DNA of 64,000 bases, taken from assembly GCA_028710525.1 (NCBI GenBank), contig JAQTTY010000009.1, positions 53 through 64,052 of the forward strand, given 5' to 3'. A program made the position numbers and the translations under genes. Source of the DNA: Gallionella sp. GTDB taxonomy: Bacteria > Pseudomonadota > Gammaproteobacteria > Burkholderiales > Gallionellaceae. The notes under the pieces are model-generated. The model ran no database searches. It was not told where the DNA came from and saw nothing but the letters and a program-made list of their open reading frames with translations. Positions 8,639 through 27,163 of this stretch are shown here, in pieces; the first letter of the stretch is position 1; each line of letters opens with the position of its first letter.

Positions 8639-8677
8639 CAGCCTTCCGAATCGATACATATTTTGCAGGGAGCATTC

Positions 8678-9913
8678 GTGGCAAATAAGGCAAAGGAATT
8701 ACCAGCATTGTCAGTTAGCAGATTGACGAAACCGGGCCTACATTTTGTGGGTGGGGTTGCAGGGCTTGCATTGCATGTTAACCAGCAGGGCGCACGCTCA
8801 TGGATATTGCGCGCCATGATAGGGGGAAAGCGTAGAGAGATGGGGCTGGGTGCATTTCCAGATGTAACGCTTGCGGGCGCAAGGGAGTTAGCTCGGATAG
8901 CGCGCGAAAAAATCAAAGAGGGAATAGACCCCATCGAGGATGGCAAAGCAAAGCGTAGCGCCTTGCTCGCGCTACGCGCCTCATCCATGACCTTCAGTGA
9001 AGCGGCCACGGCGTATATCTCGGTGATGGAGGCGGAATGGACCAACGATAAACACGCCAAGCAATGGCTAAGTACCCTGACAGCTTATGCCTTTCCCGTG
9101 ATAGGAAATATCTATGTGAGGGAGATCGACCATACACATATTGTGCGAGTGCTGGAGCCAATCTGGCTGACCAAAACAGAAACGGCAACACGTTTGCGCG
9201 GACGTATGGAGAACATACTCGACTGGACGCGTGTACGAGGCTATCGCACGGGCGAGAATCCCGCGCGCTGGCGTGGACACTTGGACATGCTATTGCCAAC
9301 ACCCGGCAAAGTTCAGAAAGTTGAACACCATCCTGCACTCCCGTTTGATGCACTAGGTGAATTTATGGTGTTGCTGCGTCAGCAAGAGGGCATGGGGGCG
9401 AGGGCGCTGGAATTTGCCATTCTTACAGCAGCACGTTCTGGAGAGGTTCGTGGGGCAAGGTGGTCCGAGATTGATCTGGATGATGCTACTTGGACAATTT
9501 CTGCCGAGCGTATGAAAGCTCGGAAAGAACATCGCGTGGCATTAAATGAAGAAGCGGTGGTTCTGCTCAAATCAATGCAGCACTCAAGTGAGTTTGTCTT
9601 TCCAAATAACAAGGGTACGCAGTTATCTGATATGACCCTGACAGCAGTGTTAAGACGCATGGGGCGTGGCAACATTACGGCGCATGGGTTCCGCTCCACG
9701 TTCCGCGATTGGTGCAGCGAGCGCACCAACTACCCGCGTGATGTCGCGGAAATGGCTTTGGCTCATACCATCAGTGATAAGGTCGAAGCTGCCTATAGGC
9801 GCGGTGATCTGTTTGAGAAACGCCGTCGTTTGATGCGTGACTGGGGAAAATTCAGCAGCAAAGTTCTGACGGTAGCTAGTGTGACTTCAATTACGGAAAA
9901 AGCAGCAGCATGA
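8678..9913 (+). CDS. int: Tyrosine recombinase, P4-type integrase (N-terminal arm-binding DUF4102-like domain)
   Basis: Catalytic R (ARSGEVRGARW), HxxR (HGFRSTFRDW), H (LAH) and Y (AYRRGD). A GTG start at 8678 with an AGGGAG SD is preferred over the TTG at 8663. Confidence 0.85.
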   Translation: MANKAKELPALSVSRLTKPGLHFVGGVAGLALHVNQQGARSWILRAMIGGKRREMGLGAFPDVTLAGARELARIAREKIKEGIDPIEDGKAKRSALLALRASSMTFSEAATAYISVMEAEWTNDKHAKQWLSTLTAYAFPVIGNIYVREIDHTHIVRVLEPIWLTKTETATRLRGRMENILDWTRVRGYRTGENPARWRGHLDMLLPTPGKVQKVEHHPALPFDALGEFMVLLRQQEGMGARALEFAILTAARSGEVRGARWSEIDLDDATWTISAERMKARKEHRVALNEEAVVLLKSMQHSSEFVFPNNKGTQLSDMTLTAVLRRMGRGNITAHGFRSTFRDWCSERTNYPRDVAEMALAHTISDKVEAAYRRGDLFEKRRRLMRDWGKFSSKVLTVASVTSITEKAAA

Positions 9914-10951: not shown

Positions 10952-11197
10952 ATGGCAAAGCAATCTGCATCGAAACCAATACCTGAAGCATTAATCAATT
11001 TTGATTCGCTCCCAGATTCAGCGAACGTCCGGCAGCCAGTCGTTCAGGGCTTGGTGGGCTGTTCGGCCGCAACTGTTTGGCGCATGGTCAAAAGGGGGAC
11101 ATTACCAAGGCCTCGCAAAATATCGACGCGCATTACAGCTTGGAATGTGGGTGAACTGAGAGAGGTCTTAGTGAAGGAAAATGGGAGTATGAAATGA
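10952..11197 (+). CDS. alpA: AlpA-family phage/island transcriptional regulator (MerR-like HTH, excisionase-like)
   Basis: 81 aa. The HTH segment VRQPVVQGLVGCSAATVWRMVKRGTLPRPRKISTRITAWNVGELREVL fits the AlpA pattern. Typical position next to a P4-type integrase. Confidence 0.7.
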   Translation: MAKQSASKPIPEALINFDSLPDSANVRQPVVQGLVGCSAATVWRMVKRGTLPRPRKISTRITAWNVGELREVLVKENGSMK

Positions 11198-11646
11198 GCA
11201 CTGAAGATACCAAAAGTAACCTGAAACAAGAAAAAGTGCGCACCCGTAAAGGGCCAATCAGAAGAATTTCAGGTGAGCAATTCTTGATTATGGGGGATGT
11301 TCTAGATATTTATGCCTTGGGTTTAAATCCAATCGAGCAAACCCAGCGCCAAGCATTCAGAAAGTTACTACCAAATGTTCACGTCATGAGAATTTTACAT
11401 AAAAATTCATTCAAAACGATAACTGCAGCCCTTGCTCAATGTGGTCTAAAGCTCAGTGTGTCTACTGTGCGTGTTTATTACTCCAAAATGCTGCCAAAGT
11501 ATCAGGCTGAGTGTGATTTGCGTTTAGTAGAAGCAGAGAAAAATTCTCTTAAATTCCAAATTCTGTATGAGAATCAAATAAGGGAAAGAATTTTCCAATC
11601 TGCCTTGGCAGTTAAAGAACAGCGGGACTCGGACGAAAGCTGGTAG
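11194..11646 (+). CDS. Hypothetical island protein
   Basis: 150-aa ORF whose start overlaps the alpA stop (ATGA). No motif recognised. Confidence 0.45.
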   Translation: MSTEDTKSNLKQEKVRTRKGPIRRISGEQFLIMGDVLDIYALGLNPIEQTQRQAFRKLLPNVHVMRILHKNSFKTITAALAQCGLKLSVSTVRVYYSKMLPKYQAECDLRLVEAEKNSLKFQILYENQIRERIFQSALAVKEQRDSDESW

Positions 11647-11767
11647 GGCAGGGGATATACAAAATTCCCCAGGCTGTGAGCTTTTCTAAGGTCTATGTAC
11701 TTTATAAGTTGGCATCAATTCCTCTAGCCCTTCATAATCCGCGCTTTACAAAATCTCTCCTGTAACC

Positions 11768-13423
11768 ATGATCGACGACATCAAGAAAACCCTTTGGGCG
11801 ACCGCCGACAAGTTGCGCGCCAACATGGATGCGGCTGAGTACAAGCATTTGGTGTTGGGTCTGATCTTCGTCAAATATATTTCCGATACCTTTGCCGCGC
11901 GCCGTGCCGAATTAGGTCGCCGCTTTGCTGATCCTAAAGACGACTACTACCTCGACGACGCCGCGCTGTTTGCCGACGAGTTGGAAGACCGCGACTACTA
12001 CAAAGAAGTGAACGTATTTTGGGTGCCAGAAAGTGCGCGTTGGGAAGCGTTGCGCGCTGCGGCCAAGCAGCCGGACATCGGCAAGCGCATCGACGATGCG
12101 CTGACAGTTATCGAAGCAGAAAATCCTAAGCTCAAGACCATCCTCGACAAGCGCTATGCCCGCGCGCAGTTGCCGGATGGCAAGTTGGGCGAGCTGGTGG
12201 ACATGGTTTCCACCATCGGTTTTGGCGTTGATCCCGGCAAAGCGCGGGATGTGCTGGGGCAGGTCTATGAATATTTCCTGGGTCAATTTGCTAGCGCCGA
12301 AGGAAAGCGCGGCGGGCAGTTCTACACGCCTGCCAGCATCGTCAAAACCTTGGTCGCTGTGCTCGCGCCGCATCACGGCAAGGTGTATGACCCCTGTTGC
12401 GGGTCGGGTGGGATGTTCGTGCAATCAGAAAGATTTATCGAAGCGCACGGCGGCAAGATAGGTGACGTGGCAATCTTCGGGCAGGAATCCAACCCCACTA
12501 CATGGCGCTTGGCGGCGATGAACCTCGCTATACGTGGTATCGACTTCAACCTCGGCCGTGAGCCGGGCGACACCTTCACTAAGAACCAGCACACCGATCT
12601 ACGTGCCGATTTTATTCTGGCCAACCCGCCGTTCAACATCAGCGACTGGTGGCACGGCAGCCTGACGGGTGATCCGCGCTGGGTATATGGCGACCCACCG
12701 CAGGGCAACGCCAACTATGCATGGCTGCAACACATGCTGTATCACCTCAAGCCCACAGGGCGCGCAGGCATCGTGCTGGCGAATGGCTCGATGAGCTCCA
12801 GTCAAAACAGCGAGGGCGAGATACGCAAAGCCATGGTCGAAGCCGACGTAGTGGAAGTGATGATCGCGTTGCCCGGCCAACTGTTCTTCAACACCCAGAT
12901 ACCCGCCTGCCTGTGGTTTCTTGCCAAACAAAAAACCACAAGACAAGGCGAAGTGCTGTTCATTGACGCACGCAAACTCGGCAGCATGATTAGTCGTGTG
13001 CAAACCGAATTCACCGATGAAGTGATAGAACGTATTGCCGCTACGGTTGCCGCATGGCGTGGCGATACCGTAGGGGCGCAATTTATTGCGCCCGAATCAG
13101 CAGGGCGCGATGAATCACGCCCCTACGCAAAAACCGCTCGCCCTGAGCCTAATAATTCCGTTCGCCCTGAGCCAGTCGAAGGGGGGCACTACGCAGACAT
13201 CCCCGGCTACTGCCGCAGTGTGAAGCTAGAAGAAATCGCCGAACACGGCCACGTCCTCACTCCCGGTCGTTACGTCGGTGCGGAAGAGGTGGAAGACGAT
13301 GACGAAGCTTTTGCCGACAAGATGCAGAAGCTCACCGAAAAACTGGGCGAGCAAATGGCGAAAGGAGCAGAGCTAGACGCTTTGATCCGGCACAAGCTGG
13401 GAGGGCTGGGGTATGAGTTCTGA
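11768..13423 (+). CDS. hsdM: Type I restriction-modification system methyltransferase subunit HsdM
   Basis: N-terminal HsdM_N-like segment. SAM motif [10 protein letters not shown] and catalytic NPPF ([13 protein letters not shown]). Overlaps the hsdS start. Carries a REP-like in-frame insertion at about 13070-13186. Confidence 0.9.
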
Positions 13424-14774
13424 GCAAACTCGCTCACTTCGAGATTTTGTTAGCCTTCAACGAGGAACAACCTACAAAGGAAATCTCGTTGGACTGCCCG
13501 GGCCTGTATTGCTGGGTTTAGCATCAATTAAACCTAACGGTGGTTTCCGTTATGGTGGTTTCAAAACTTATGGCGGTGAGTGTCCAGAGAAAATATCTCT
13601 TCGATCCGGTGATTTGTACGTATCGCTAAAAGATGTCACTCAATCAGGTGACTTACTCGGCTCCGTTGCTAAAATTCCTACTGATATTGAATCAGGTCGT
13701 CTCACTCAAGATACCGTCAAACTGGTTTTTGATGGCGCGCCAACTTCAAAGGACTACCTTTACTGGTTACTTCGAACCCCAGCATACCGTGATTACTGCC
13801 GAGGTTGTGCCACTGGAACCACAACTTTAGGACTAGCAAGGGATGACTTCCTCAACTACCCAGTTCCCAATCCTAGTGAAGCAGATATGGTGTTGGTTGA
13901 GCTGCTAGAAGGAATTGAGAAGCGTATTACCCTTCTGAGCGAAACCAACGCCACGCTGGAAGCCATTGCGCAGGCGATGTTCAAATCGTGGTTTGTCGAT
14001 TTCGATCCCGTCCACGCCAAACAACAAGGCCTCGCCCCCGAAGGCATGAGCGAAGCCATACCCGCAAGGGGTACGCCGGTGTGTGCCCCGGGCGTTCCGC
14101 CCGACCCTTCCGCTGCCGCCGCGCTATTCCCCGACAGCTTCGAGGAATCGGAACTGGGCTTGGTGCCGAGGGGGTGGCGCACAAGTGCTGTGTACGATCT
14201 GGCGCAGTACATCAATGGTGCTGCATATAAAGCATTTGAGCCGAACGCTGAGCAACGCGGTCTGCCGATTATTAAGATTGCAGAACTTAAAGCTGGCGTT
14301 ACTAAACAGACAGGTTATTCAGATGTCAGCATGCCTGAAAAATACAGGATAGCTACTGGAGATATTTTGTTCTCTTGGTCTGGAAATCCTGATACATCCA
14401 TTGATACTTTTGTCTGGCTTCATGGCGACGCTTGGCTCAACCAGCATATCTTCCGAGTTGTTCCAAGTACATCAAGTGACCGTTCATTTGTCTTGATGAC
14501 GCTCAAGTACCTGAACCCAATATTCGCAGAGATTGCACGAAATAAACAAACCACAGGGTTAGGCCATGTAACTGTTGCCGACTTGAAAAGGCTGCGTGTA
14601 GTTAAACCGAGTGATGCAGTGCTTCAGCAATGGAATGAGATTGTTGATCCATTGATTGAGAGAGCATTAAATGTTCAGCAGCAAGCCCAAACCCTCGCCA
14701 CCCTCCGCGACACACTGCTCCCCCGCTTGATTGCTGGCAAAATTAGTATTTCAGGACAGGAGGGGGTTGTATGA
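13413..14774 (+). CDS. hsdS: Type I restriction-modification specificity subunit HsdS
   Basis: Two low-GC target-recognition domains separated by high-GC conserved helices ([35 protein letters not shown]). Sits in an operon with hsdM. Confidence 0.85.
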
Positions 14775-15325
14775 AGTTACGGCTATTTTCATCGGTCATT
14801 ATTTTCCTGAGTGCTTATTCACCGCTTGCCATTATTTTCTGCATTCAGAATTATGATTTCGAGAAACAAGAAATGCTGCACCCGCACATTATTTGGCCGA
14901 TTCTTGGCTTGGCAGTGGTGAGCTGCATTATTTTGTGGGCAACAGTGAGTCTTCCAAAAGTTTCAAAAGCACCAGTTACCGTTAGAGCGGTATCAAACAA
15001 GTCGAGCGAGTTGGTCAGCTACACGATCCCGTACATGGTTTCCTTTTTTGTAATTGAACACTGGAATACCCAGCTTCTCATTAGCTTTGCCTTTTTCATG
15101 TTCATCATGTTTTGGTTGACGCTCAAAACGCACACTATCTTCAACAACCCTATTCTTGCCATGTTGGGATACAACATCTTTGATGTGCATTATGAAAAGA
15201 ATGGCAGGGAGTATCAAGATTACTGGCTGGCGAAGGGCGGGCGACTAAGGAAAAACGAGCAATGCCGGATTGTTGAAATTTCAGAGCAACTTTATCTAGT
15301 CACAGAACGTAACCCAGAGGTGTAA
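14771..15325 (+). CDS. Four-TM membrane protein, KwaA-like (Kiwa component A candidate)
   Basis: 184 aa with about 4 predicted TM helices and a cytosolic tail. ATGA overlap with the hsdS stop and a strong SD (GGAGGGGG). About 38-40 percent GC inside an hsd operon of about 58 percent GC. Confidence 0.5.
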   Translation: MKLRLFSSVIIFLSAYSPLAIIFCIQNYDFEKQEMLHPHIIWPILGLAVVSCIILWATVSLPKVSKAPVTVRAVSNKSSELVSYTIPYMVSFFVIEHWNTQLLISFAFFMFIMFWLTLKTHTIFNNPILAMLGYNIFDVHYEKNGREYQDYWLAKGGRLRKNEQCRIVEISEQLYLVTERNPEV

Positions 15326-15327
15326 GC

Positions 15328-16272
15328 ATGGAAGAAAAAAAGAAGCTGCTTGCTAAAATTAAATCACTTGACTGGTCTCGTGCCAGCGTTTCTCTCTACT
15401 TGATCAAACGCACGCTAGTTCATCGACAAGCCACCTACGATGTTCTGCAAGTCAATGCCGATGATAAGTTGCGAAAAAGGTTGAGAGGCATTGCTAGCAG
15501 CAAGATTCAGCAGTCAAACAATGCACTTGAATATGACTTCCATACCGCCGATTTAGATGACAACCTTCTTGGTATTGCCACATCTGAAACAGATTTCCAA
15601 GACATTATAGATGTCATTGCCGCAGAAGATGAACCGGGCTTTGCGGATTCAATTGAACAGTTAATTGACTCGTGGCTCTATATCGCTCGCTTAGATATTG
15701 CTGGGAAACCGCCGATGTATGCGGCACGACGCGTATCCGAGGGCTGGACAACGAAGAAGGTCTCGCAGCTTATCAGCATGATTTTCCAAGACAACATGCT
15801 GGTTGATATTGAGCAGAAAGAGATATTCCGAATAGACGGGAAGGTGGATTTTTTCTCCTACGATGGCACGACGTTCATAGCGGACAAGAAGAATTTCGAG
15901 ACCGCCCTGAACTTCAGGGAAGGAATGGAACGTAACCGCGATGAAATTGTAGATGAGTTCCATTCCCTCAATCTGTTTGAGAATGCCGCTGAGATTTCGG
16001 CCTTGGTCGGTGACAACATTCGTCGTTTGCGACGATTGTCTCAAGTCAAGAAAGCTGCTTATTACAAGGATGCCAACTTTTTGGCGAATCTAAAAAGAGT
16101 GAATGCTGAAGAAGGCTGGGGGATAAAGTATTCCGCACATGGGAAGCTGTTAGTCACAGAGGAAGACATTGAAATAGTTTTGCGTGTACTGAATAACGAC
16201 CGCTTAACATCGAAGATAAACTCCGAAAATTTTGATGTCGATGTGAAGCATAAGCTAGGTAGTCCAACTTGA
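15328..16272 (+). CDS. Soluble 314-aa protein, KwaB-like (DUF4868-like; Kiwa component B candidate)
   Basis: Starts 3 nt after the membrane-protein stop, with SD GAGGTG. Size and pairing with a 4-TM partner match Kiwa. The family was assigned from memory and not searched. Confidence 0.45.
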   Translation: MEEKKKLLAKIKSLDWSRASVSLYLIKRTLVHRQATYDVLQVNADDKLRKRLRGIASSKIQQSNNALEYDFHTADLDDNLLGIATSETDFQDIIDVIAAEDEPGFADSIEQLIDSWLYIARLDIAGKPPMYAARRVSEGWTTKKVSQLISMIFQDNMLVDIEQKEIFRIDGKVDFFSYDGTTFIADKKNFETALNFREGMERNRDEIVDEFHSLNLFENAAEISALVGDNIRRLRRLSQVKKAAYYKDANFLANLKRVNAEEGWGIKYSAHGKLLVTEEDIEIVLRVLNNDRLTSKINSENFDVDVKHKLGSPT

Positions 16273-16374
16273 TATGATTCTGCGACACGTTGCTCCCCAC
16301 TGATTTCTGACCAACTGCAACTGCCGGAAGCCTGTGCCGCGCTGGAAGAAGCTTAAAATGTCGCGACTTCAATT

Positions 16375-16427
16375 AGTCAGCAACCTGCTGACTAATTTTA
16401 TATTTGGGCAGCACGCTGCTGCCCAAA
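16375..16427 (+). terminator. Two consecutive stem-loops ending the hsdM-to-15328 operon
   Basis: AGTCAGCA-ACC-TGCTGACT (16375-16393) and TTTGGGCAGCA-CGC-TGCTGCCCAAA (16403-16427). No clean U-tract, so termination efficiency is uncertain. Confidence 0.45.
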
Positions 16428-16451
16428 TGAGTAGATGGATGCAAATCATTC

Positions 16452-16503
16452 GTAGGTCGGGTTACGCTACTCTCTCGTACACTTAAGGGTGAACCCGACC
16501 TAC
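16452..16503. repeat. REP-like palindromic element
   Basis: 12-bp perfect inverted repeat GTAGGTCGGGTT / AACCCGACCTAC with a 28-nt spacer. Confidence 0.6.
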
Positions 16504-16549
16504 CAAAGACGACGAAAAGCGCATGAATGTGCTTGTATCATTTCTGCCA

Positions 16550-16642
16550 TTTTCTATACACGGCGCGGATGGAATGTATAAAAAATCGCGTTTTCTATAC
16601 ATGCTCAGGATAGAATGTATAGAAAATCGACTTTCCTATACA
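16550..16642 (+). promoter_or_regulatory. 41-bp direct repeats (2.3 copies) containing TCTATACA-N-TGTATAGA inverted repeats, upstream of fic-hsdR
   Basis: Units at 16550-16590 and 16591-16631 plus a partial unit 16632-16642. The last copy ends about 25 bp before the fic start codon. Confidence 0.5.
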
Positions 16643-16666
16643 AACCCTGAATGAGGATGCGCTGAA

Positions 16667-17740
16667 ATGACCTCCATCTTGCCCTTGGAACAACTGAAAG
16701 CCGGTCGCTTCGATACGCCTGCTATCCTTAAGAAGTTGGCGAGTAGTAGCCGTAAGCTGGCGGAGCTTAAGGGCATCGCGGCATCCATTCCCAATCAGGG
16801 CATTCTGATCAACACGCTGGGCATGCAGGAAGCCAAGGATAGTTCAGAAATCGAGAACATCGTCACCACGCAGGATGAAATTTTCAAGCAGGAAGTGTTA
16901 CCCGATGCTTTTGCCAATCCGGCTGCCAAAGAGGTACAACGTTATCGGCAGGCTTTGCGGCTGGGCTATGAGCAGGTGCGGGAGAGTGGGCTGATTACGG
17001 CAAATCACATCATCGCGATTCAATCAGAGTTAGAACAAAGTCATGCGGGGTTTCGCAAGTTGCCTGGCACCGCATTGAAAAACAACCGTGGTGAGACGGT
17101 TTATGCCCCGCCACAAGACCCAAGCGAGATCATTGCGCTGATGCGGGATCTGGAGCGATTTATCAATGATGATGCGTTGTATCAGGTCGATCCGCTGATC
17201 AAGATGGCTTTGTTACATCATCAGTTCGAAAGTATTCATCCGTTCTACGACGGCAATGGTCGCACTGGGCGCATTTTGAATGTGCTGTATCTGGTTAAGG
17301 AAGGCTTACTGGAGGTACCAGTGCTGTATTTGAGCAGCCATATCGTGCGCACCAAGGCAGATTACTACCGCTTGTTGCAGAAGGTGCGCGATGATGATGC
17401 GTGGGAAGAATGGGTGTTGTATATGCTGGAGGCAGTGGAACAAACCGCCGGGCAAACCCTGACTACGGTGCAAGACATTAAGGCTGCTTTATTCGACTAC
17501 AAGCACCGCATCCGTGCGGGGTTTAAGTTTTATAGTCAGGATTTGATCAATAACTTGTTTGCGCACCCTTATACCAAAATTGAATTTGTACAACGCGACT
17601 TGGGCGTGTCGCGCCTGACAGCTACCAAATATATTGATGCATTGGCTGAAGCGGGATTTGTGCAGAAACATAAAATCAAGGGCAGCAATTACTACATCAA
17701 TGTCGCGCTGAATCAGATTCTGCTGGGAAATCAGCAATGA
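16667..17740 (+). CDS. fic: Fic family protein (AMPylase/Fido domain with Fic-N and a C-terminal wHTH)
   Basis: Canonical motif [13 protein letters not shown]-terminal PN.GILIN.L...EA..SSEIENI pattern. Stop overlaps the hsdR start (ATGA). Confidence 0.85.
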
Positions 17741-20700
17741 CCGAAGACCAACTCGAACAGGAAGCACTAGGCTGGCTTGCGGCAGTGGGCTACTCGCATT
17801 TGTACGGCCCCGATATTGCAGTTGATGGCGATAGTCCTGAGCGTAGCGATTATCGGCAGGTGGTGCTGGTGGAGCGTTTGCGTTCTGCCGTTGCGCGACT
17901 AAATCCGGCGATCCCTGCGGCGGCGCGTGAGGATGCGATTGGGCAAGTGCTTGATCTAGGTACACCAGTGCTGCTCTCCGCTAATCGGCGTTTCCACCAA
18001 CTGCTGGTGACGGGCGTGCCGGTGCAATATCAGAAAGACGGCGAGACACGCGGCGACTTTGTGCGGCTGATCGATTGGGCTGATTCATCATTCCCTCCCC
18101 CTGGCAGGGGGAGGGCTAGCGAGGGGGTGGGAACGCTATCGTCCAAAGCATCTACCCCCATCCCAACCTTCCCCCTGCAAGGAGGAAGGAGTGAGTTTGA
18201 TGTCAACGGTTCATCTGGCCTAAACGAGTTCCTCGCCATCAACCAGTTCTCCATCAAGGGCGCACACCACACGCGCCGACCGGACATCATCCTGTTCGTG
18301 AATGGCTTGCCGCTGGTGTTGCTGGAACTTAAAAATCCCGCTGATGAAAACGCAGACATCTGGAAAGCCTACGACCAGATTCAAACTTATAAAGAGCAAA
18401 TTTCCGACGTGTTTCTGTACAACCAGATTCTGGTGATATCGGACGGCAGCGAGGCGCGTTTGGGTTCGTTGTCGAGCGATGCCGAGCGCTTTATGCAGTG
18501 GCGTACGATTGATGGTGCGACGCTTGATCCGTTGGGACAATTCAATGAGCTTGAAACGCTGATACATGGCGTGCTCGCGCAAGCTTATCTGCTCGACTAC
18601 CTGCGCTACTTTGTGTTGTTTGAAGATGACGGCACGCTGGTGAAGAAGATTGCGGGCTATCACCAATTCCATGCGGTACGTGCGGCGATCAATCAGGTGG
18701 TGGTGGCTTCGCGCCCCGGTGGCACGCACAAGGGTGGAGTGGTGTGGCACACGCAAGGGAGCGGCAAGAGCATCACCATGACTTGCTTTGCCGCGCGCGT
18801 GATGCAGGACGTGGCGATGCAGAATCCGACTATTGTGGTCATCACCGACCGCAACGATTTGGACGGGCAGTTGTTCGGCGTGTTTTCGCTGGCGCAGGAT
18901 TTGTTGCGCGAACAACCCGTGCAAGCCAATACCCGCCAAGACTTGCGCGCCAAGTTGGGCAACCGTCCTTCCGGTGGCATCGTCTTTGCGACGATACAGA
19001 AGTTCATGCTGGGCGAGGATGAGGACACTTTTCCTATCTTGTCTGAACGCAGCAATATCGTGGTGATCGCCGATGAAGCGCACCGCACGCAATATGGCTT
19101 CGAGGCCAAGCTCAAGTCCATCAAGACACCCCGTGTGGCGGCAAACGATGCACAAATCTTGCAGGTTGCCGAAGCGCCCGCCGAGTATTTGTCACGCTTC
19201 CAAGTGGGCTATGCGCAGCATCTGCGCGATGCTTTGCCCAATGCCACCTTCGTTGCCTTTACCGGCACGCCAGTCTCCAGCGAGGACCGCGACACCCGTG
19301 CGGTGTTTGGCGACTACATCCATATATATGACATGCAGCAGGCCAAGGAAGATGGCGCGACCGTGGCGATCTACTTTGAGTCGCGTCTGGCTAAGTTGTC
19401 GCTTAAGAGCGAAGAGCTACCTTTGCTGGACGATGAAGTGGACGAGCTGGCCGAGGATGAAGAGGAAAGCCAGCAAGCCAAACTTAAGAGCCGCTGGGCT
19501 GCGCTAGAACGAGTGGTCGGTGCGGAGCCGCGTGTTGCCAGTGTGGCTAAAGACTTGGTGGCGCATTTTGAGGAACGCAGCAAGGCGCAGACCGGCAAGG
19601 CGATGGTGGTGGCGATGAGCCGCGAGATTTGCGTGCATCTGTATAACGAGATCATCAAGCTGCGCCCCGATTGGCATGATGCCGATCCTGAAAAGGGCGC
19701 GATCAAGATTGTGATGACCGGCTCGGCCAGCGATAAGGCGTTGCTGCGTCCGCATATCTACAGTGGCCAAGTGAAGAAGCGTTTAGAGAAACGCTTCAAA
19801 GACCCTGCTGATCCGCTGCGGATGGTGATTGTGCGCGATATGTGGCTGACGGGTTTTGATGCGCCTTGCGTGCATACCTTATATGTAGATAAACCGATGA
19901 AGGGCCACAACCTAATGCAGGCCATCGCGCGGGTGAACCGCGTTTTCAAAGATAAACAAGGCGGCTTGGTGGTGGACTACATCGGTATCGCCAATGAATT
20001 GCGCAGTGCCTTGAAGGAATACACCAACAGCAAGGGGCGCGGCCGACCAACGGTGGACGCCCACGAAGCTTATGCCGTGCTCGAAGAAAAGCTCGATGTG
20101 TTGCGCGGCATGCTGTGCGACTTCGACTACAGCGACTTTTTAACGCATGGCCACAGGATGTTGGCCGGTGCGGCCAACCATGTGCTGGGTTTGAAAGACG
20201 GCAAGAAACGTTTTGGCGATACCGCGCTGGCGATGAGCAAAGCCTTTACCTTGTGCTGCACCTTGGATGAAGCCAAGGCGGTGCGTGAAGAGGTGGCCTT
20301 CTTCCAGGCAGTTAAAGTCATCCTGACCAAACGCGACATCAGCCAGCAGAAACGTACCGACGAAGCGCGTGAACTGGCGATCCGGCAGATCATAGGCTCG
20401 GCGGTGGTGTCCGAAGAAGTCGTGGATATCTTCAATGCGGTGGGCTTGGATAAGCCCAACATCGGCATTCTGGATGATGCTTTCCTCGCTGAGGTGCGCA
20501 ATCTGCCAGAACGCAATCTGGCGGTGGAGTTGCTGGAGCGTCTATTAGAAGGCGAAATCAAAACCCGCTTCGCAGGCAACATCGTGCAAGACAAGAAATT
20601 CTCTGAGTTGCTGTCCGATGTCATCAAGCGCTACCAGAACCGTGCTATCGAGACGGCGCAAGTCATCGAAGAATTAATCGAGATGGCTAAGAAATTCAGG

Positions 20701-21015
20701 GCGGCGGCGGAGCGGGGCGATGAACTAGGCCTGACTGAAGATGAGATTCGCTTCTACGATGCGCTGGCGGACAATGAATCGGCAGTACGCGAACTGAGCG
20801 ATGAGATCCTGAAGAAGATTGCCCATGAGCTGACTGAAAACCTACGCCAGAACCTAAGTGTGGACTGGTCGCAACGCGAAAGTGTGCGGGCCAAGCTGAG
20901 ATTGATGGTGAAACGCATTCTGCGTAAATATAAGTATCCGCCTGACATGCAAGATGCGGCGGTTGAGCTGGTCTTGCAACAGGCACAGGCACTAGGGGAG
21001 GCGTGGGGACGGTAG
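17737..21015 (+). CDS. hsdR: Type I restriction endonuclease subunit HsdR
   Basis: 1092 aa. Nuclease-domain segment [20 protein letters not shown], Walker A TQGSGKS and the DEAH box ([10 protein letters not shown]). REP-like in-frame insertion at about 18086-18225. Confidence 0.9.
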
Positions 21016-21232
21016 GTAACCTATATCGATTCTGCTTAAAACTGTCCTATTTCCCTAAATAGATGCAAATTGGATTTGTCCTGAATCCAAGTTAGATACA
21101 TCTGTTTTCGATGTTACTTTCACCGCAATTTCTTTGTGGTTTGATTGGCAATCAATCAGAAATCCATAGTTGGTCCACAACAAATTAATCGCTACTTAAG
21201 TGTTAGTTGACTAGAAATCTGTCTAAACTCCT

Positions 21233-21541
21233 TCAATAATCAACTGCTGATTCGTCCCAATCCTCTCGCTGGTCCAAATCAATTTCAATGTGATTGGGCT
21301 GCGAATCAATCCTAGCTCCCTTGTGATTCCAAGGTAAGTCGACTGCAGATCCCATGTGATTCCAAGGTAAGTCGACTGCAGATCCCATGTTGATCCAAGG
21401 TAGATCGACTGCAGATCCCATGTAATTCCAAGGTAGATCGACTGAATTTCCTTTGATATTCGATTTCAGCTCATTCCCAAAACGAACATTAATTCGACTG
21501 TATTCCATCGGCTTTTTGCAGCAATTGTGTAGCACTCTCAA
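21233..21541 (-). CDS. Questionable ORF encoding 11-residue repeats (GSAVDLPWNHM)
   Basis: 102-aa ORF whose core is the 33-bp tandem repeat. No SD or motif support. Confidence 0.25.
   Translation of the reverse strand: MRVLHNCCKKPMEYSRINVRFGNELKSNIKGNSVDLPWNYMGSAVDLPWINMGSAVDLPWNHMGSAVDLPWNHKGARIDSQPNHIEIDLDQREDWDESAVDY
21323..21447. repeat. 33-bp tandem repeat, about 3.7 copies (gtgattccaaggtaagtcgactgcagatcccat)
   Basis: Copies at 21323-21355 and 21356-21388 are identical, 21389-21421 is a variant, and a partial copy starts at 21422. Confidence 0.85.
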
Positions 21542-21553
21542 TACGAAATGCTA

Positions 21554-21797
21554 GGACAGGATGCCGGATATGGCCCTCACGGTGGAATCCGGATTTTGAC
21601 CCGCTAGATTGCTTCGCTCTCGGCGCAAATCACTCAGGGCTTCGCCCCGAGACCCGTAAGTGATGAAATCGATGGAATTCATTAACTAATAGATTAGGTG
21701 TCGGGGCGGTAGCCCTGACCCGATTGAGAAGAGCGCGTAGCGTTCAAGCAAACGGAAATCTGGATAGTGCATCTGCACTACATCCGGCATCCTGTCC
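21554..21797. repeat. 244-bp imperfect palindrome (MITE-like element or long RNA hairpin)
   Basis: The terminal 16-bp perfect inverted repeat is GGACAGGATGCCGGAT / ATCCGGCATCCTGTCC. Inner matching blocks are ATCCGGATTT/AAATCTGGAT and TCAGGGCTTCGCCCCGAGACC/GGTGTCGGGGCGGTAGCCCTGA. Confidence 0.6.
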
Positions 21798-23141: not shown

Positions 23142-24329
23142 ATGGATCACTTCTCTATCATCTTGGGGCTTTGTCGTTCCGCTTTGCAAACATCCAATCC
23201 GGCTGTGGTAGGTCATGTCCAGCGCCTTGTACGGGCACTTGAAAAGGATAATGTTCCTCAACAGGTTAGTGCGTTAAAAAAGCTAATGGCGTCAGAGGAA
23301 GCGTTGGCCGAGATTACCCCAAGTCGCGTTGTTTTATCTCGTAGGTCATTGTCTGGAGAAATACTTACGCCAAGCGTTACGTCACCAGTCGACAAAGAAA
23401 CTGGGGCGCCATTAGCTGAAATTGTGCATGCCCGAAAAGGGGATGCTCTACAGCCACTATTCATTCCCGCACTTGCAACTGGAATAAATACTCTACTTGA
23501 AGAGTGGTCTCACGTTGACGAGTTACGAGCAGCCGGTGTGCGTCCAGCATTAGCCACTATGCTCTTTGGTGCACCTGGTACAGGCAAAACAATGCTTGCA
23601 CACTATATTGCCGCACAACTGGAGCTGCCGCTAATAGTGGCCCGATTAGATGGGCTTATATCATCGTTTCTTGGTACAACGGCTCGTAACATTTCCAATC
23701 TATTTTCGTTTGCAAACCGATACAAGTGTGTACTCTTACTTGATGAGTTTGATGCGGTTGCAAAGTTGCGTGACGACCCACACGAATTGGGTGAAATAAA
23801 ACGTGTAGTAAATACTCTTCTGCAATGTATTGATAGTCGCTCAGAGCTCGGATTTACCATAGCAATCACGAATCATGAATCTCTCCTTGATCCTGCAGTC
23901 TGGCGACGTTTTGATGTTCGAATTGAGGTACCGAAGCCGAACGCACTAACCCGCGTTGAGATTTTGCGTCGTCAGTTTGATGCGTCCATGTTGGATGAGA
24001 CATACCTTAGATTTTTGGCGTGGATTACTGATGGCTATAGCGGTTCGGATGTGGAAAAACTGGCGGATTTTTTGAAGAGGCAAAAGGCTATTCAAAAAGC
24101 AAACTTTGATTTCTTCACTGGGGTGAGAAGCTATGTACAGATGAGCGCCTATGAAGGAGGATCGCATAATCGATCGTTGGTAGCAGCAGACCAAGAAATT
24201 CTTGCGCGTACCTTAGTTAGTGATGAATCTATACCATTTAGCCAGGAACAATTGGCAACACTGTTTGGGTGTACTCAGCCGACTATTAGTCGTTGGCTAA
24301 AGAATAAAACAATTAGTGGAGTTAAATGA
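23142..24329 (+). CDS. AAA+ ATPase with a C-terminal HTH (IetA-like)
   Basis: Walker A GAPGTGKT, Walker B VLLLDEFD, arginine-finger region. C-terminal LATLFGCTQPTISRWLKNK HTH. Stop overlaps the next start (ATGA). Confidence 0.7.
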   Translation: MDHFSIILGLCRSALQTSNPAVVGHVQRLVRALEKDNVPQQVSALKKLMASEEALAEITPSRVVLSRRSLSGEILTPSVTSPVDKETGAPLAEIVHARKGDALQPLFIPALATGINTLLEEWSHVDELRAAGVRPALATMLFGAPGTGKTMLAHYIAAQLELPLIVARLDGLISSFLGTTARNISNLFSFANRYKCVLLLDEFDAVAKLRDDPHELGEIKRVVNTLLQCIDSRSELGFTIAITNHESLLDPAVWRRFDVRIEVPKPNALTRVEILRRQFDASMLDETYLRFLAWITDGYSGSDVEKLADFLKRQKAIQKANFDFFTGVRSYVQMSAYEGGSHNRSLVAADQEILARTLVSDESIPFSQEQLATLFGCTQPTISRWLKNKTISGVK

Positions 24330-26746
24330 TGGCAAATAACCCAATACAAATCGTGTTGAATGCTCAGAATTATGTTCAGCGTTCTGATATAAATCCAGGC
24401 GGAGCCAATAAAGATTTTTATGCTGGGAGAAATGAGGATTTTGTTAGGCATCGTGAATCTATAACGACTCAACTTAATGAACTTCAGCAGGTATTTGGGG
24501 GGGCACAACTGGATGAGGTTTTCTATGCTCGAGTAGACTTGCAATCGGAAGCTTGGGCCAAAAGCCACAGGCCCATTCAAAAGGTATTCTCAACGCGAAA
24601 TCAGTTGTATATAGGTGCTGCTGAGCTTGGATCAATGGTTGTCGAACTAACTCCAGCAGATATTCCTAGAATTGTTTCAGTAGTAGCTTCTGCTGAAACT
24701 GTGGTTGCTCAGGTTGAAAAGAACGGTAAGCTTATCGCAAAACCTTCGCGTATTCGCAGTGAAGTTGGTGCCATCAAATCAGTTCGTAGATATGCTGCCG
24801 CTGATCGACGTAACTTTTCTGCAGAGCAGGCTGCTCTCTGGTTGGCCGATCCTAGGACCGGTGGTGCTTATTACGTGGAGACCTTCCTTTCTTGGAAGAC
24901 GGTTGAAGGCAGGGGCTCAGAGGGTTTTAAAGCACGCGGAGCACGTGTACTTTCTAAATTCGAAACCGGACTGAATGGACTGAATCTGCCGATTGAGGTA
25001 TCACGCGCATCAGATCAGTGGATAAATGCTTCCATTTACATTATCAAAGTAAACGCGAAAATTTTAGATAATCCAACTGATGCAGTTAGCATTCATGCAG
25101 CTTTACTTGAATTTCTTGATAATCAGGCTGCAGTTAAGACGATTCTTCTGCCGCCTATTTTACAGGCGGCACAGATTGGAGACGGGGGAGAAGGTTCGCC
25201 AATAATTCCGCCACCTACTAATGACCGTACTTATCCGATAGTTGGAATAATCGATACAGGTGTTAGTAAATATCCTGCACTTAATGCATGGAGCGCAGGA
25301 TCAATAGATTTTTTGGATGTCGAAACGCAAGATGTTTCGCACGGCACATTTATCGCGGGATTAGTTGCGGCGGCGGATGTGCTAAATGCGAATCCGATAT
25401 TTTCAGAAACAAAATGCCGTTATTTTGATTTAGGCTTGCACCCAACGGCTGAAGGGGTATATGGCGATTATTACCCTAATGGCTTTCTAGACTTCCTTGA
25501 GCAATTGGATGCCGAGCTACCCGCTGCAAAGGATATGGGCGTAAGGGTATTTAATATGAGTCTTTCCGTCACAACGCCTGTTGCGGATGATGGATATAGC
25601 TTATTCGCCAACCTACTTGATGAAATATCTGACAAGCATGATGTTTTGTTTATCCTGCCATCAGGAAATCTAGACAGTGGCCTTGCTCGTGATGAGTGGC
25701 CACTAAATCCGAATGATGCAATGGCTATGCTTGCAGCATACCCATTTGCAGGACAAGATCGTATTTTTCAACCGGCCGACAGCATCCGCTCTATCGTAGT
25801 TGGGGCGTTGGATCCGCAAACTACTGCGGGTGGATTTTTGCCATCAAGGTACACCCGTCGTGGTCCTGGGCCATCGCTTGGTGCCAAGCCTGATGTAGCG
25901 CATGTCGGCGGGAAACTCGATACCAACAGTGGGTTATATTCAGTTTTGCCAACTGGCGAGGCGATTCAAAGCTGTGGAACAAGCTATTCTTCCCCCCTTG
26001 TTGCCAAAACTGTCGCGGCACTAGACCACGCCATTGAGGGTGACATTTCGCGCGAAGCTCTCACCGCACTGGTAATTCATCATGCTGATACGCCATCTAG
26101 TCTCGATAAGCCAGTTTTACGTCCAATTTCTCACCACTTCGTAGGTGCAGGGATTCCTCGTCATGCAGCTGAAACACTACTCGTTGAGGATTATGAGATA
26201 ACACTAGTATTCAATGGAACTTTGGTGAACGGGCATGAACTCCGTTTCAACTTTGCATGGCCAACTAGCCTTGTAGGTACAAATGGTGGATGCTCAGGTG
26301 ATGTCAAACTGACTTTGGTATATCGCCCTCCAACCGATCGCAAGTTTGGTGGTGAATTTGTGCGAATTAATCTCGATGCATACCTTCGTCAGGAAGAGGT
26401 TAATTCAGACACCGGTGAGATTAGTTTTAAGGGGCGTCTAAAAGGTGATGGAACAAAGCAGCTTGAAAAGGAATTAGTAAAGCACGGGGCGAAGTGGTGG
26501 CCAGTAAAAAGATTAAAAGGGAAATTTAAATCAATCGGTAAATCATCTCAGTGGAGGCTTGTAATCGATCCGCTTGCGCGAAGCGAGTTTGTAATGCCAG
26601 AGAGCGGAATACCGTTTTCAGCAATCCTGACAATTTCCGACCCAGAGGAAGCTGCTCCAATTTTCAATCAAATGCGATTGCAGCTCCAAAATGCGGGGGC
26701 TAATGTCTCAGATATTCGGTCCGCTCTCCGTACCCGCATACGTTAA
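24326..26746 (+). CDS. S8 subtilisin-like serine peptidase with large unknown N- and C-terminal regions (IetS-like)
   Basis: Catalytic triad motifs GIIDTGV (Asp), HGTFIAGLVAA (His) and GTSYSSPLVA (Ser). 806 aa with no signal peptide, so predicted cytoplasmic. Confidence 0.75.
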   Translation: MMANNPIQIVLNAQNYVQRSDINPGGANKDFYAGRNEDFVRHRESITTQLNELQQVFGGAQLDEVFYARVDLQSEAWAKSHRPIQKVFSTRNQLYIGAAELGSMVVELTPADIPRIVSVVASAETVVAQVEKNGKLIAKPSRIRSEVGAIKSVRRYAAADRRNFSAEQAALWLADPRTGGAYYVETFLSWKTVEGRGSEGFKARGARVLSKFETGLNGLNLPIEVSRASDQWINASIYIIKVNAKILDNPTDAVSIHAALLEFLDNQAAVKTILLPPILQAAQIGDGGEGSPIIPPPTNDRTYPIVGIIDTGVSKYPALNAWSAGSIDFLDVETQDVSHGTFIAGLVAAADVLNANPIFSETKCRYFDLGLHPTAEGVYGDYYPNGFLDFLEQLDAELPAAKDMGVRVFNMSLSVTTPVADDGYSLFANLLDEISDKHDVLFILPSGNLDSGLARDEWPLNPNDAMAMLAAYPFAGQDRIFQPADSIRSIVVGALDPQTTAGGFLPSRYTRRGPGPSLGAKPDVAHVGGKLDTNSGLYSVLPTGEAIQSCGTSYSSPLVAKTVAALDHAIEGDISREALTALVIHHADTPSSLDKPVLRPISHHFVGAGIPRHAAETLLVEDYEITLVFNGTLVNGHELRFNFAWPTSLVGTNGGCSGDVKLTLVYRPPTDRKFGGEFVRINLDAYLRQEEVNSDTGEISFKGRLKGDGTKQLEKELVKHGAKWWPVKRLKGKFKSIGKSSQWRLVIDPLARSEFVMPESGIPFSAILTISDPEEAAPIFNQMRLQLQNAGANVSDIRSALRTRIR

Positions 26747-27072: not shown

Positions 27073-27163
27073 TGGCGGAGAAGGGGGGATTCGAACCCCC
27101 GTTGGGATATTATCCCAAACACGCTTTCCAGGCGTGCGACTTAAACCACTCATCCACCTCTCC
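27073..27163 (-). tRNA. tRNA-Ser (anticodon GGA)
   Basis: The reverse complement reads GGAGAGGTGGATGAGTGGTTTAAGTCGCACGCCTGGAAAGCGTGTTTGGGATAATATCCCAACGGGGGTTCGAATCCCCCCTTCTCCGCCA. It has a 7-bp acceptor stem, anticodon loop CUGGAAA, a long variable arm, a GTTCGAATC T-loop and an encoded CCA. Confidence 0.9.

What the first reader, a model, noticed from the sequence alone, without database searches (positions are those of the whole stretch)
14771..16272. Low-GC two-gene cassette (4-TM protein plus 314-aa protein) spliced into the type I R-M operon
The pair is probably Kiwa; otherwise it is a new embedded module. It is translationally coupled to hsdS (ATGA overlap) and to each other (3-nt gap, strong SDs). 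Its GC content is about 40 percent against about 58 percent for hsdM and hsdR. Size and architecture match KwaA/KwaB, that is a small 4-TM protein followed by a soluble DUF4868-type protein of about 310 aa. I cannot verify the family without a search. Either outcome is interesting: a Kiwa system co-transcribed with R-M methylase/specificity genes, or an undescribed membrane-sensor/effector pair in the well-known hsd-embedded defence hotspot.
Basis: partly seen in the sequence, partly recalled or inferred. Interest (0 to 1): 0.65.

Follow-up and report, generated by a model that had tools for sequence, protein, structure and literature searches.

The report
Kiwa defence pair inside restriction operon
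The two genes are a genuine copy of the known Kiwa anti-phage system (membrane sensor KwaA plus DNA-binding KwaB) nested between hsdS and hsdR of a type I restriction-modification operon, so this is a sound annotation and not a new system.

Summary
ORFs 14771-15325 (184 aa) and 15328-16272 (314 aa) exist. The first overlaps the hsdS stop (ATGA). The pair has 43.8% GC, against 56-57% for hsdM and hsdR.

ORF184 is KwaA (PADLOC E 6e-44) and ORF314 is KwaB (PADLOC E 1e-102; Pfam PF16162 E 1e-33). AlphaFold models of both match only solved KwaA and KwaB structures.

The locus reads hsdM-hsdS-kwaA-kwaB-terminator-SoFic-hsdR. It lies downstream of a P4-type integrase gene.

In 24 related loci from about ten phyla, 17 have the pair between hsdS and hsdR, 4 have it just after hsdR, 1 sits beside a decayed hsd remnant and 2 have no R-M neighbour. 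The slot also holds other defence cargo, such as DarTG, Abi_2, TIR and Schlafen-like genes.

The GC dip occurs in all 17 operons measured, so it is a family trait and does not show recent import.

Two points seem little described. The cassette is flanked by direct repeats of the conserved hsdS 3' segment, with a displaced hsdS tail at 16279-16356. Its history is also partly independent of hsdM and hsdR (lower dS; conflicting trees). Both suggest cassette exchange by recombination in hsdS.

Novelty is low: a known system in a known kind of embedding.

The parts
11709..11738 (+). Promoter-like site upstream of hsdM (TTGGCA-18-CATAAT). It is the likely start of the hsdM-hsdS-kwaA-kwaB transcript.
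   Evidence: 10 of 12 matches. This is a consensus match only; the number of such sites in the region does not exceed the shuffled expectation.
11768..13423 (+). hsdM, the type I methyltransferase. It carries a 108-nt in-frame repeat-element insertion at about 13061-13187.
   Evidence: Pfam N6_Mtase 1.4e-106 and HsdM_N 3.6e-22. The extra segment relative to L001 is seen.
13413..14774 (+). hsdS, the specificity subunit with two target-recognition domains. Its last codons ('...[12 protein letters not shown]') belong to the Kiwa-linked tail.
   Evidence: PADLOC Specificity_I 1.3e-73 and Pfam Methylase_S. Homology to L001 resumes at 14677, inside the conserved 3' segment.
14704..14736 (+). Left direct repeat: the conserved hsdS 3' segment encoding [12 protein letters not shown].
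   Evidence: Local alignment to 16279-16309. The equivalent repeats in L001 are 33/35 identical.
14771..15325 (+). kwaA, the 184-aa four-TM membrane protein of Kiwa. It is translationally coupled to hsdS through an ATGA overlap.
   Evidence: PADLOC KwaA PDLC00215 E 6e-44, covering 1-179 of 184. The family profile hits solved KwaA at 4e-10. The model matches 9mrx_A with TM 0.78/0.74.
15328..16272 (+). kwaB, the 314-aa soluble DUF4868 protein of Kiwa.
   Evidence: Pfam PF16162 E 1.3e-33 (117 bits; cut-off 26.3) and PADLOC KwaB PDLC00235 E 1.2e-102. The model (pLDDT 82) matches only solved KwaB entries 9mtn, 9mrx and 9nyu, E 6e-10 to 1e-8.
16279..16356 (+). Displaced remnant of an hsdS 3' end, and the right direct repeat. 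It reads '..DTLLP / LISDQLQLPEACAALEEA*' and is frameshifted here.
   Evidence: Three-frame translation. The same remnant is intact in L001 ('[23 protein letters not shown]'). The window copy has two 2-nt deletions relative to L001.
16371..16407 (+). Terminator-like hairpin (12-bp perfect stem, 3-nt loop) followed by TTATATTTGG. It is the likely end of the hsdMS-kwaAB transcript.
   Evidence: it is the strongest terminator-like site in 11000-21600.
16550..16642 (+). A 41-nt unit repeated about 2.3 times, each unit holding TTTTCTATACA and TGTATA(A/G)AAAA in inverted orientation. It looks like an operator or promoter region for SoFic-hsdR.
   Evidence: The function is inferred from position only.
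16667..17740 (+). SoFic-type Fic gene with the [12 protein letters not shown] motif. It is the second embedded defence gene, and its stop overlaps the hsdR start.
   Evidence: PADLOC SoFic PDLC03963 E 4.6e-116; Pfam Fic_N, Fic and SoFic-like_C.
17737..21015 (+). hsdR, the type I restriction subunit. It carries a 129-nt in-frame repeat-element insertion at about 18084-18214.
   Evidence: PADLOC REase_I 1148.7 bits; Pfam HSDR_N, SWI2_SNF2 and T1RH-like_C. The insertion relative to L001 is seen.

Best explanation
The pair is a complete Kiwa anti-phage and anti-plasmid system, kwaA plus kwaB. It belongs to a Kiwa clade that habitually lives inside type I R-M operons.

Shown here:
- Both proteins belong to the KwaA and KwaB families by profile and by fold.
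- The genes are intact and under strong purifying selection.
- They sit between hsdS and hsdR, directly coupled to the hsdS stop codon.
- A second embedded defence gene, SoFic, follows them.
- The cassette is bracketed by two copies of the conserved hsdS 3' segment.

Inferred from the published E. coli work (Zhang, Todeschini et al., 10.1101/2023.02.26.530102): KwaA tetramers in the inner membrane sense the membrane disturbance made by phage attachment, DNA ejection or conjugation. This activates bound KwaB dimers. KwaB binds the incoming DNA through its DUF4868 domain and stalls replication forks and late transcription.

Inferred from the anatomy here: kwaAB is made from the hsdM-hsdS message (promoter-like site at 11709, terminator-like hairpin at 16371). 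SoFic-hsdR would form a second unit. The locus would then give layered defence: restriction of unmethylated DNA, Kiwa against phages that escape restriction, and Fic as a further effector.

Also inferred: the cassette was captured, and is exchanged between operons, by homologous recombination in the roughly 35-bp conserved hsdS 3' segment. It carries its own hsdS tail ('..E(E)LV*' overlapping ATGA) and displaces the resident tail downstream.
For: Family membership:
- KwaA: PADLOC PDLC00215 E 6e-44, nearly full length. KwaB: PDLC00235 E 1.2e-102 and Pfam PF16162 E 1.3e-33.
- The KwaA family profile hits solved KwaA at 4e-10.
- The KwaB model hits only solved KwaB (E 6e-10). The KwaA model hits only solved KwaA (TM 0.78).

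Selection: dN/dS is 0.05-0.06 against L001.

Context:
- In the KwaB tree, a 17-row clade (SH-aLRT 95) has 13 loci between hsdS and hsdR, 2 after hsdR, 1 beside a decayed hsdM_N::hsdS-tail remnant and 1 without R-M. The distant clade has 1 of 9 with R-M.
- Seven further metagenome contexts give 4 embedded, 2 after hsdR and 1 with none.
- A 4-nt stop/start overlap with the upstream gene recurs in W, L001, L010, L033, L038 and L039, and in the L002 remnant.

Cassette exchange:
- Cassette limits against L002 are 14758-16277.
- The flanking repeats in L001 are 33/35 identical. The displaced hsdS tail is intact in L001 and decayed in the window. In L002 a remnant tail precedes kwaA, after an AAA_13 gene.
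- dS of kwaA and kwaB is 0.18 and 0.27, against 0.83 for hsdM and 1.13 for hsdR.
- L033 has Kiwa 87-90% identical to the window but HsdR only 47%. HsdR data reject the Kiwa grouping (AU p 6e-6), and Kiwa data reject the HsdR grouping (p 2e-47).
- Contigs of related operons in other metagenomes join the hsdS 3' segment to SoFic or to the hsdR start.

Transcript ends: the terminator-like and promoter-like sites come.
Against: - No expression or phenotype data exist for this organism, which is a landfill metagenome assembly.
- This clade is only 13-15% identical to the solved E. coli proteins in the structural alignment. phmmer finds no solved KwaB, and the KwaB profile reaches solved KwaB only at E 0.089. 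Transfer of the mechanism is therefore by family, not by close homology.
- The KwaB model aligns with TM of only 0.46-0.49, probably because the domains are oriented differently.
- Promoter-like sites in the region are no more numerous than in shuffled sequence.
- The recombination-capture model rests on remnants seen only in the betaproteobacterial group (W, L001, L002). Other stacked loci show no remnant with my motif search.
- The lower dS could partly reflect different codon constraints.
- The AU groupings were chosen after the trees had been seen.
- hsdM, hsdS and hsdR all carry in-frame repeat insertions, so the R-M partner may not be fully active.
Confidence: 0.9

Rival explanations
1. 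The R-M-resident Kiwa clade is not an independent passenger but a working part of the type I R-M machine. For example, KwaAB could hold or mark entering DNA at the membrane for the Hsd complex. Alternatively, KwaB and the Hsd complex could share DNA-mimic inhibitors, so that one system stays active when the other is blocked.
For: - The association is strong and spans many phyla: 21 of 24 loci lie within or directly after a type I operon, and one more lies beside a decayed one.
- Translational coupling to the gene upstream recurs.
- The KwaAB and HsdR trees are broadly parallel.
- KwaB is known to be bound by the DNA mimic Gam, with 'inhibitor partitioning' between Kiwa and RecBCD (abstract of 10.1101/2023.02.26.530102).
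Against: - The same slot carries many unrelated defence cargos (DarTG, Abi_2, TIR+8xMP, Schlafen-like, AAA_13, KAP NTPase, SoFic). Location is therefore explained by a general hotspot.
- Members of the clade occur without R-M (L015, L036) and after hsdR (L003, L005, L034, L035).
- The cassette moves between non-orthologous operons.
- Kiwa systems from E. coli protect when cloned alone.
Confidence: 0.1
2. The pair is a decaying or silent relic carried along in a degenerating R-M operon. All three hsd genes contain repeat-element insertions.
For: There are in-frame insertions of 108, 57 and 129 nt in hsdM, hsdS and hsdR relative to L001. These segments have very high depth in the source metagenome, which marks them as multi-copy repeats. 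The hsdS-tail remnant is frameshifted.
Against: kwaA and kwaB are full length, match their profiles end to end, and show dN/dS of 0.05-0.06. The hsd insertions keep the reading frames open, and dN/dS of hsdM and hsdR is also about 0.04-0.05.
Confidence: 0.04
3. The pair is an undescribed membrane-sensor/effector pair that resembles Kiwa only in size and layout.
For: Identity to the experimentally studied E. coli proteins is low, 13-15% in structural alignments. phmmer finds no solved KwaB.
Against: Dedicated KwaA and KwaB HMMs match at E 6e-44 and E 1e-102 over the full length. Pfam KwaB scores well above its cut-off. The only significant PDB fold matches are KwaA and KwaB.
Confidence: 0.01

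Closest known systems
Kiwa (KwaA/KwaB) of E. coli ECOR8, ECOR12 and ECOR49 and of O55:H7; structures 9mrg, 9mrr, 9mrx, 9mtn, 9nyu, 9o0i; Zhang, Todeschini et al., bioRxiv 10.1101/2023.02.26.530102 (PMC11785009)
   Same: It is a two-gene kwaA-then-kwaB operon. KwaA is a small four-TM protein with a cytoplasmic beta-rich C-terminal domain. KwaB is a protein of about 310 aa with a DUF4868 domain. Both folds match (TM 0.78 for KwaA; E 6e-10 for KwaB).
   Different: Identity is only 13-15% in the structural alignments, so this is a separate clade (PADLOC models PDLC00215 and PDLC00235). It is built into a type I R-M operon and translationally coupled to hsdS. That paper's neighbourhood analysis reports prophages, plasmids and islands, and a search of its text for 'type I' and 'hsd' found no mention of R-M embedding.
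Defence genes embedded between hsdS and hsdR of type I R-M operons: DarTG2 in the EPEC RRDM island (PMC12255303), TgvAB in V. cholerae VPI-2 (PMC11411939), PrrC, and the 'guilt-by-embedding' survey of Payne et al. (10.1101/2024.01.29.577857)
   Same: The slot is the same (after hsdS, before hsdR), the strand is the same, and co-regulation with the host system is likely. The cargo varies among related operons, and PMC12255303 suggests that the site is a recombination hotspot.
   Different: The cargo here is Kiwa plus SoFic. A search of the Payne et al. text found no mention of Kiwa. The hsdS 3' direct repeats and the displaced hsdS tail at the cassette border were not mentioned in the passages of these papers that my term searches returned.
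SoFic (PADLOC PDLC03963), a Fic-domain defence protein
   Same: The neighbouring gene at 16667-17740 matches over its full length (E 4.6e-116) and carries the Fic motif [12 protein letters not shown].
   Different: It is not part of Kiwa. It occupies a second position in the same slot, and its stop overlaps the hsdR start.

Membership tests
Kiwa | KwaA: a small multi-pass membrane protein that matches KwaA profiles | tested here: met
   PADLOC PDLC00215 E 6e-44, residues 1-179 against profile positions 1-193 of 196. The profile of 23 relatives hits solved KwaA at 4e-10. The precomputed Pfam PF28043 KwaA family is assigned to close relatives.
Kiwa | KwaA fold: four TM helices plus a cytoplasmic C-terminal domain, as in the cryo-EM structures | tested here: met
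   The AlphaFold model (pLDDT 78) against 9mrx_A gives E 1e-8 and TM 0.78/0.74 over 194 columns. No family other than KwaA is significant. Hydropathy gives three strong and one weaker TM segment.
Kiwa | KwaB: a DUF4868 / PF16162 domain protein of about 300 aa | tested here: met
   Pfam PF16162 E 1.3e-33, 117 bits against a cut-off of 26.3. PADLOC PDLC00235 E 1.2e-102, residues 3-310 against profile positions 4-310 of 312.
Kiwa | KwaB fold as in the solved KwaB structures | tested here: met
   The model (pLDDT 82, pTM 0.71) matches only 9mtn, 9mrx and 9nyu (E 6e-10 to 1e-8, probability 1.00, about 330 aligned columns). TM is only 0.46-0.49. Sequence-only searches are weak: phmmer finds nothing and the profile reaches E 0.089.
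Kiwa | kwaA and kwaB adjacent and co-oriented, with kwaA first | tested here: met
   The gap is 2 nt and both are on the same strand. The pairing is conserved in all 30 loci for which both genes could be read.
Kiwa | Protection against phage or conjugation; KwaA4-KwaB2 membrane supercomplex; DNA binding by KwaB | not testable with these tools
   This needs cloning, plaque and conjugation assays, and biochemistry.
Type I R-M operon with embedded defence cargo | hsdM, hsdS and hsdR all present on one strand, with the foreign genes between them in the same orientation | tested here: met
   Pfam and PADLOC hits for all three subunits.
Type I R-M operon with embedded defence cargo | The R-M system is active | not testable with these tools
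   The ORFs are intact, but each carries an in-frame repeat insertion relative to L001. No methylome or restriction data are available.
SoFic (neighbouring gene) | Fic domain with the catalytic HxFx(D/E)GNGRxxR motif, plus Fic_N and the SoFic-like C-terminal domain | tested here: met
   Pfam Fic_N 1.3e-26, Fic 4.7e-19 and SoFic-like_C 5.1e-16; PADLOC SoFic 4.6e-116. The motif [12 protein letters not shown] is seen in the translation.

The most novel reading that the evidence does not exclude
This Kiwa clade has become a dedicated resident of type I R-M operons and works with the Hsd complex. KwaAB might capture DNA at the entry site for restriction. Alternatively, KwaB and HsdMS might share DNA-mimic anti-restriction proteins, so that one inhibitor cannot silence both. 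Separately, the conserved hsdS 3' segment may act as a recombination 'docking site' that lets defence cassettes be stacked and swapped between operons, much like a homology-driven integron.
Probability: 0.12. Interest if true: 0.65.

Novelty: new member of a known kind. Interest (0 to 1): 0.28.

Why it matters
As an annotation this is routine. Kiwa is a described system that standard defence-finding profiles recognise, and defence genes nested in type I R-M operons are a described phenomenon.

Two side results have modest value.

First, one Kiwa clade is almost always tied to type I R-M operons, across about ten phyla. That makes it a natural test case for whether embedded systems cooperate with their host system or merely share its regulation.

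Second, the direct repeats of the hsdS 3' segment, the displaced hsdS tail and the discordant divergence of cassette and flanks give a concrete, testable mechanism for how the hsdS-hsdR hotspot acquires and stacks cargo.

Tried and rejected
- phmmer of KwaB against PDB sequences found nothing. The family profile reached solved KwaB only at E 0.089. Fold comparison was needed to link it to the solved structures.
- An Rfam scan of 14500-17000 at E up to 1 found no RNA family in the cassette or the kwaB-SoFic spacer.
- I looked for att-type repeats of the tRNA-Ser 3' end to delimit the island and found none with a 12-nt seed. The island borders were left unresolved.
- I looked for an excision joint between the two hsdS 3' repeats in the source metagenome. 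Only assembler contigs are available, and they show no such joint. Contigs cannot show rare variants, so this is uninformative.
- I rejected the low GC of the pair as evidence of recent import. The same offset is present in all 17 related operons and follows host GC.
- I rejected the chance-ORF and pseudogene readings.
- Forcing L033 HsdR to be sister to the betaproteobacterial HsdR clade is not rejected (AU p 0.083). Only the nested Kiwa-tree grouping is rejected. The groups were chosen after the trees had been seen.
Full report
**1. Observation**

All of the following ORFs lie on the + strand:

| Gene | Coordinates | Length |
|---|---|---|
| hsdM | 11768-13423 | 551 aa |
| hsdS | 13413-14774 | 453 aa |
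| ORF184 | 14771-15325 | 184 aa |
| ORF314 | 15328-16272 | 314 aa |
| Fic gene | 16667-17740 | 357 aa |
| hsdR | 17737-21015 | 1092 aa |

- The ATG of ORF184 overlaps the hsdS TGA.
- GGAGG-like and GAGGTG-like motifs precede both starts.
- GC is 43.8% for the pair, 56.9% for hsdM and 55.8% for hsdR.

**2. Identity**

Sequence profiles:
- PADLOC assigns ORF184 to KwaA (PDLC00215, E 6e-44, nearly full length).
- PADLOC assigns ORF314 to KwaB (PDLC00235, E 1.2e-102, full length).
- Pfam PF16162 (KwaB/DUF4868) scores 117 bits against a cut-off of 26.3.

Relation to the solved E. coli proteins:
- The pair is distant from them. phmmer gives only E 0.018 for KwaA and nothing for KwaB.
- A profile of 23 KwaA relatives reaches solved KwaA at E 4e-10.
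- A profile of 27 KwaB relatives reaches solved KwaB only at E 0.089.

Fold comparison settles the matter:
- The KwaB model (pLDDT 82) has six significant PDB matches. All are KwaB (9mtn, 9mrx, 9nyu; E 6e-10 to 1e-8) and all are aligned end to end.
- The KwaA model (pLDDT 78) matches only KwaA (9mrx_A, TM 0.78/0.74).

Both genes are under strong purifying selection. dN/dS is 0.05-0.06 against the closest relative.

The pair is therefore a bona fide Kiwa system from a clade remote from the characterised E. coli systems.

**3. Surroundings**

- The next gene matches SoFic (E 4.6e-116), carries an intact Fic motif, and overlaps the hsdR start.
- The kwaB-SoFic spacer holds several features:
  - a remnant of an hsdS 3' end at 16279-16356;
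  - the strongest terminator-like hairpin of the region at 16371-16397, followed by a T-run;
  - a second perfect hairpin;
  - a REP-like inverted repeat;
  - a 41-nt unit repeated about 2.3 times, with inverted TTTTCTATACA / TGTATAGAAAA boxes, just before SoFic.
- A promoter-like site (10 of 12 matches) lies before hsdM.
- No Rfam family matches this region.
- I infer two transcription units, hsdM-hsdS-kwaA-kwaB and SoFic-hsdR. This mirrors the classical P_mod/P_res layout of type I systems. It is inference only, because no RNA data exist.
- Upstream of the operon lie a P4-type integrase gene (8663-9913) and an AlpA-like gene. A tRNA-Ser gene lies at 27073-27163. The operon therefore appears to sit on an integrase-bearing island, whose borders I could not define.
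- The window comes from a landfill metagenome.

**4. Related loci**

KwaB has 189 homologues with E below 1e-5. I examined their genomic contexts in two sets.

Set 1: a scan of one genome per species gave 32 loci. I mapped the window's proteins onto them and built a KwaB tree.
- The window falls in a supported 17-row clade (SH-aLRT 95).
- Thirteen of those loci have kwaAB between hsdS and hsdR.
- Two have it directly after hsdR of an hsdM-hsdS-hsdR operon (L003, L005).
- One has it after a decayed ORF that fuses an HsdM N-terminal fragment to an hsdS tail (L009).
- One has no R-M neighbour (L015).
- In the more distant clade (at most 42% identity), only 1 of 9 loci has hsd neighbours.

Set 2: seven further metagenome contexts gave 4 embedded, 2 after hsdR and 1 unassociated.

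The hosts span Beta-, Gamma- and Zetaproteobacteria, Desulfobacterota, Bacteroidota, Binatota, Verrucomicrobiota, Bacillota, Nitrospirota and Cloacimonadota.

The same slot also carries other cargo:
- DUF3800;
- AAA_13;
- Schlafen-AlbA_2/HATPase_c_4;
- TIR plus 8xMP;
- DarT plus a macro-domain protein;
- AAA_21 plus DUF4276;
- KAP NTPase;
- Abi_2;
- RhuM.

The hsdS-hsdR gap is thus a general defence hotspot, as the literature already describes (PMC12255303; PMC11411939; 10.1101/2024.01.29.577857). Term searches of the Kiwa paper ('type I', 'hsd') and of the embedding preprint ('Kiwa') returned no mention of Kiwa inside R-M operons. Earlier notes of this scan report the same pattern in other genomes. 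Those notes are leads and not independent evidence, so I re-derived the pattern from my own loci.

**5. The GC argument**

In all 17 operons where both could be measured, kwaAB is lower in GC than hsdM and hsdR (mean 38.2% against 50.4%). Its GC follows host GC, ranging from 28% to 47%. The dip is a property of the gene family. It is not evidence that this copy arrived recently.

**6. How the cassette moves**

*Boundaries.*
- Against Sulfuricella sp. T08 (L002), similarity covers exactly 14758-16277. That runs from 13 nt before kwaA to 5 nt after kwaB.
- Against the closest relative (L001, a betaproteobacterial MAG), similarity covers 14677-16398 at 92.8% nucleotide identity. Over hsdM it is 86-89% and over hsdR 79-83%. 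The hsdS target-recognition domains are unrelated.

*Flanking repeats.*
- In L001, two 35-nt direct repeats that are 33/35 identical bracket the cassette. Both encode the conserved HsdS motif [11 protein letters not shown].
- The downstream copy in L001 continues as an intact alternative hsdS tail ('...RVPEAEAALE*').
- In the window, the same remnant has suffered two 2-nt deletions.

*The Kiwa-linked tail.*
- In L002 the order is reversed: hsdS, AAA_13, an hsdS-tail remnant, kwaAB, hsdR.
- In W, L001, L002 and L033, the tail joined to kwaA ends in '..E(E)LV*' and overlaps the kwaA ATG.
- The mobile unit therefore looks like [hsdS 3' tail + kwaAB].

*Independent history.*
- Between the window and L001, dS is 0.18 for kwaA and 0.27 for kwaB, but 0.83 for hsdM and 1.13 for hsdR.
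- L033 carries a Kiwa 87-90% identical to the window's, next to an HsdR only 47% identical. L021 has a 73-75% Kiwa next to a 61% HsdR.
- HsdR data reject the Kiwa grouping (AU p 6e-6). Kiwa data reject the HsdR grouping (p 2e-47). The groups were chosen post hoc, which weakens these tests.

*Other samples.* Contigs of related operons in groundwater metagenomes join the hsdS 3' segment (14719-14725) to 16757 or to 17737. This is consistent with operons that lack Kiwa or lack both cargos. The intervening letters are unknown, so this evidence is weak.

*Reading.* My estimate is about 60%: the cassette is mostly inherited with its operon (the trees are broadly parallel) but is occasionally exchanged by homologous recombination anchored in the conserved hsdS 3' segment. 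That process leaves the displaced resident tail as a scar, and it allows cassettes to stack.

**7. Mechanism**

Transferred from the published work by family membership:
- KwaA tetramers sense the membrane disturbance at sites of phage attachment or conjugation.
- This activates KwaB dimers.
- KwaB binds incoming DNA through DUF4868 and stalls replication forks and late transcription.
- Gam, a DNA mimic, inhibits KwaB.

Here Kiwa would be made together with the methyltransferase genes. It would back up restriction against phages that are modified or that carry anti-restriction functions. None of this was tested for this clade.

**8. Verdict**

This is a known system in a known kind of embedding, so novelty is low. 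The clade-wide tie to type I R-M operons and the hsdS-repeat scar are modest, testable additions.

Noticed in passing
window 13061-13187 (hsdM), 14059-14115 (hsdS), 18084-18214 (hsdR): All three hsd genes carry in-frame insertions (108, 57 and 129 nt) that are absent from the closest relative L001. The hsdM and hsdR inserts read as typical translated repeat elements ('RPEPVEG', '[10 protein letters not shown]'). Contig depth in the source metagenome jumps from about 67x to 850-2980x over the hsdM and hsdR inserts, which marks them as multi-copy REP/MITE-like elements. Whether the R-M enzyme tolerates them is unknown.
   Followed up: partly
window 16550-16642: A 41-nt unit is repeated about 2.3 times. 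Each unit holds TTTTCTATACA and its inverse TGTATA(A/G)AAAA. It sits directly upstream of SoFic, whose C-terminus is a winged-helix domain. It may be an autoregulatory operator for the SoFic-hsdR unit.
   Followed up: no
window 16667-17740 / 17737: A SoFic-type Fic gene with an intact [12 protein letters not shown] motif has a stop codon that overlaps the hsdR start. hsdR translation is therefore probably coupled to Fic translation.
   Followed up: partly
window 16446-16509: An 18-nt-arm inverted repeat (TCATTCGTAGGTCGGGTT ... AACCCGACCTACCAAAGA, 89% complementary) lies in the kwaB-SoFic spacer. It looks like another REP-type element.
   Followed up: no
window 21281-21478: Five tandem copies of a 33-nt unit (AGATCCCATGTGATTCCAAGGTAAGTCGACTGC) lie just downstream of hsdR, inside a 101-aa minus-strand ORF that has no Pfam match.
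   Followed up: no
window 23142-26746: An AAA ATPase gene (395 aa, with an HTH tail) overlaps an S8 subtilase gene (806 aa). This may be another ATPase-protease defence pair, lying between the R-M locus and the tRNA-Ser gene.
   Followed up: no
window 8663-9913, 10952-11197, 27073-27163: A P4-type integrase gene and an AlpA-like gene lie upstream of the R-M locus, and a tRNA-Ser(GGA) gene lies about 17 kb downstream of the integrase. No att-type direct repeat was found with a 12-nt seed, so the island limits are unresolved.
   Followed up: partly
L009 8827-9423: In a Verrucomicrobiota MAG, the ORF before kwaA fuses an HsdM N-terminal fragment to an hsdS C-terminal tail. This is a decayed R-M operon in which Kiwa has been kept.
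   Followed up: partly
L033 5355-7447, L037 4963-7193, L038 4808-5724: Several related operons carry a nucleotidyltransferase pair (NTase_sub_bind with Polbeta/NTP_transf_2, MNT-HEPN-like) between hsdM and hsdS. In two of them the Polbeta domain appears fused to HsdS.
   Followed up: no
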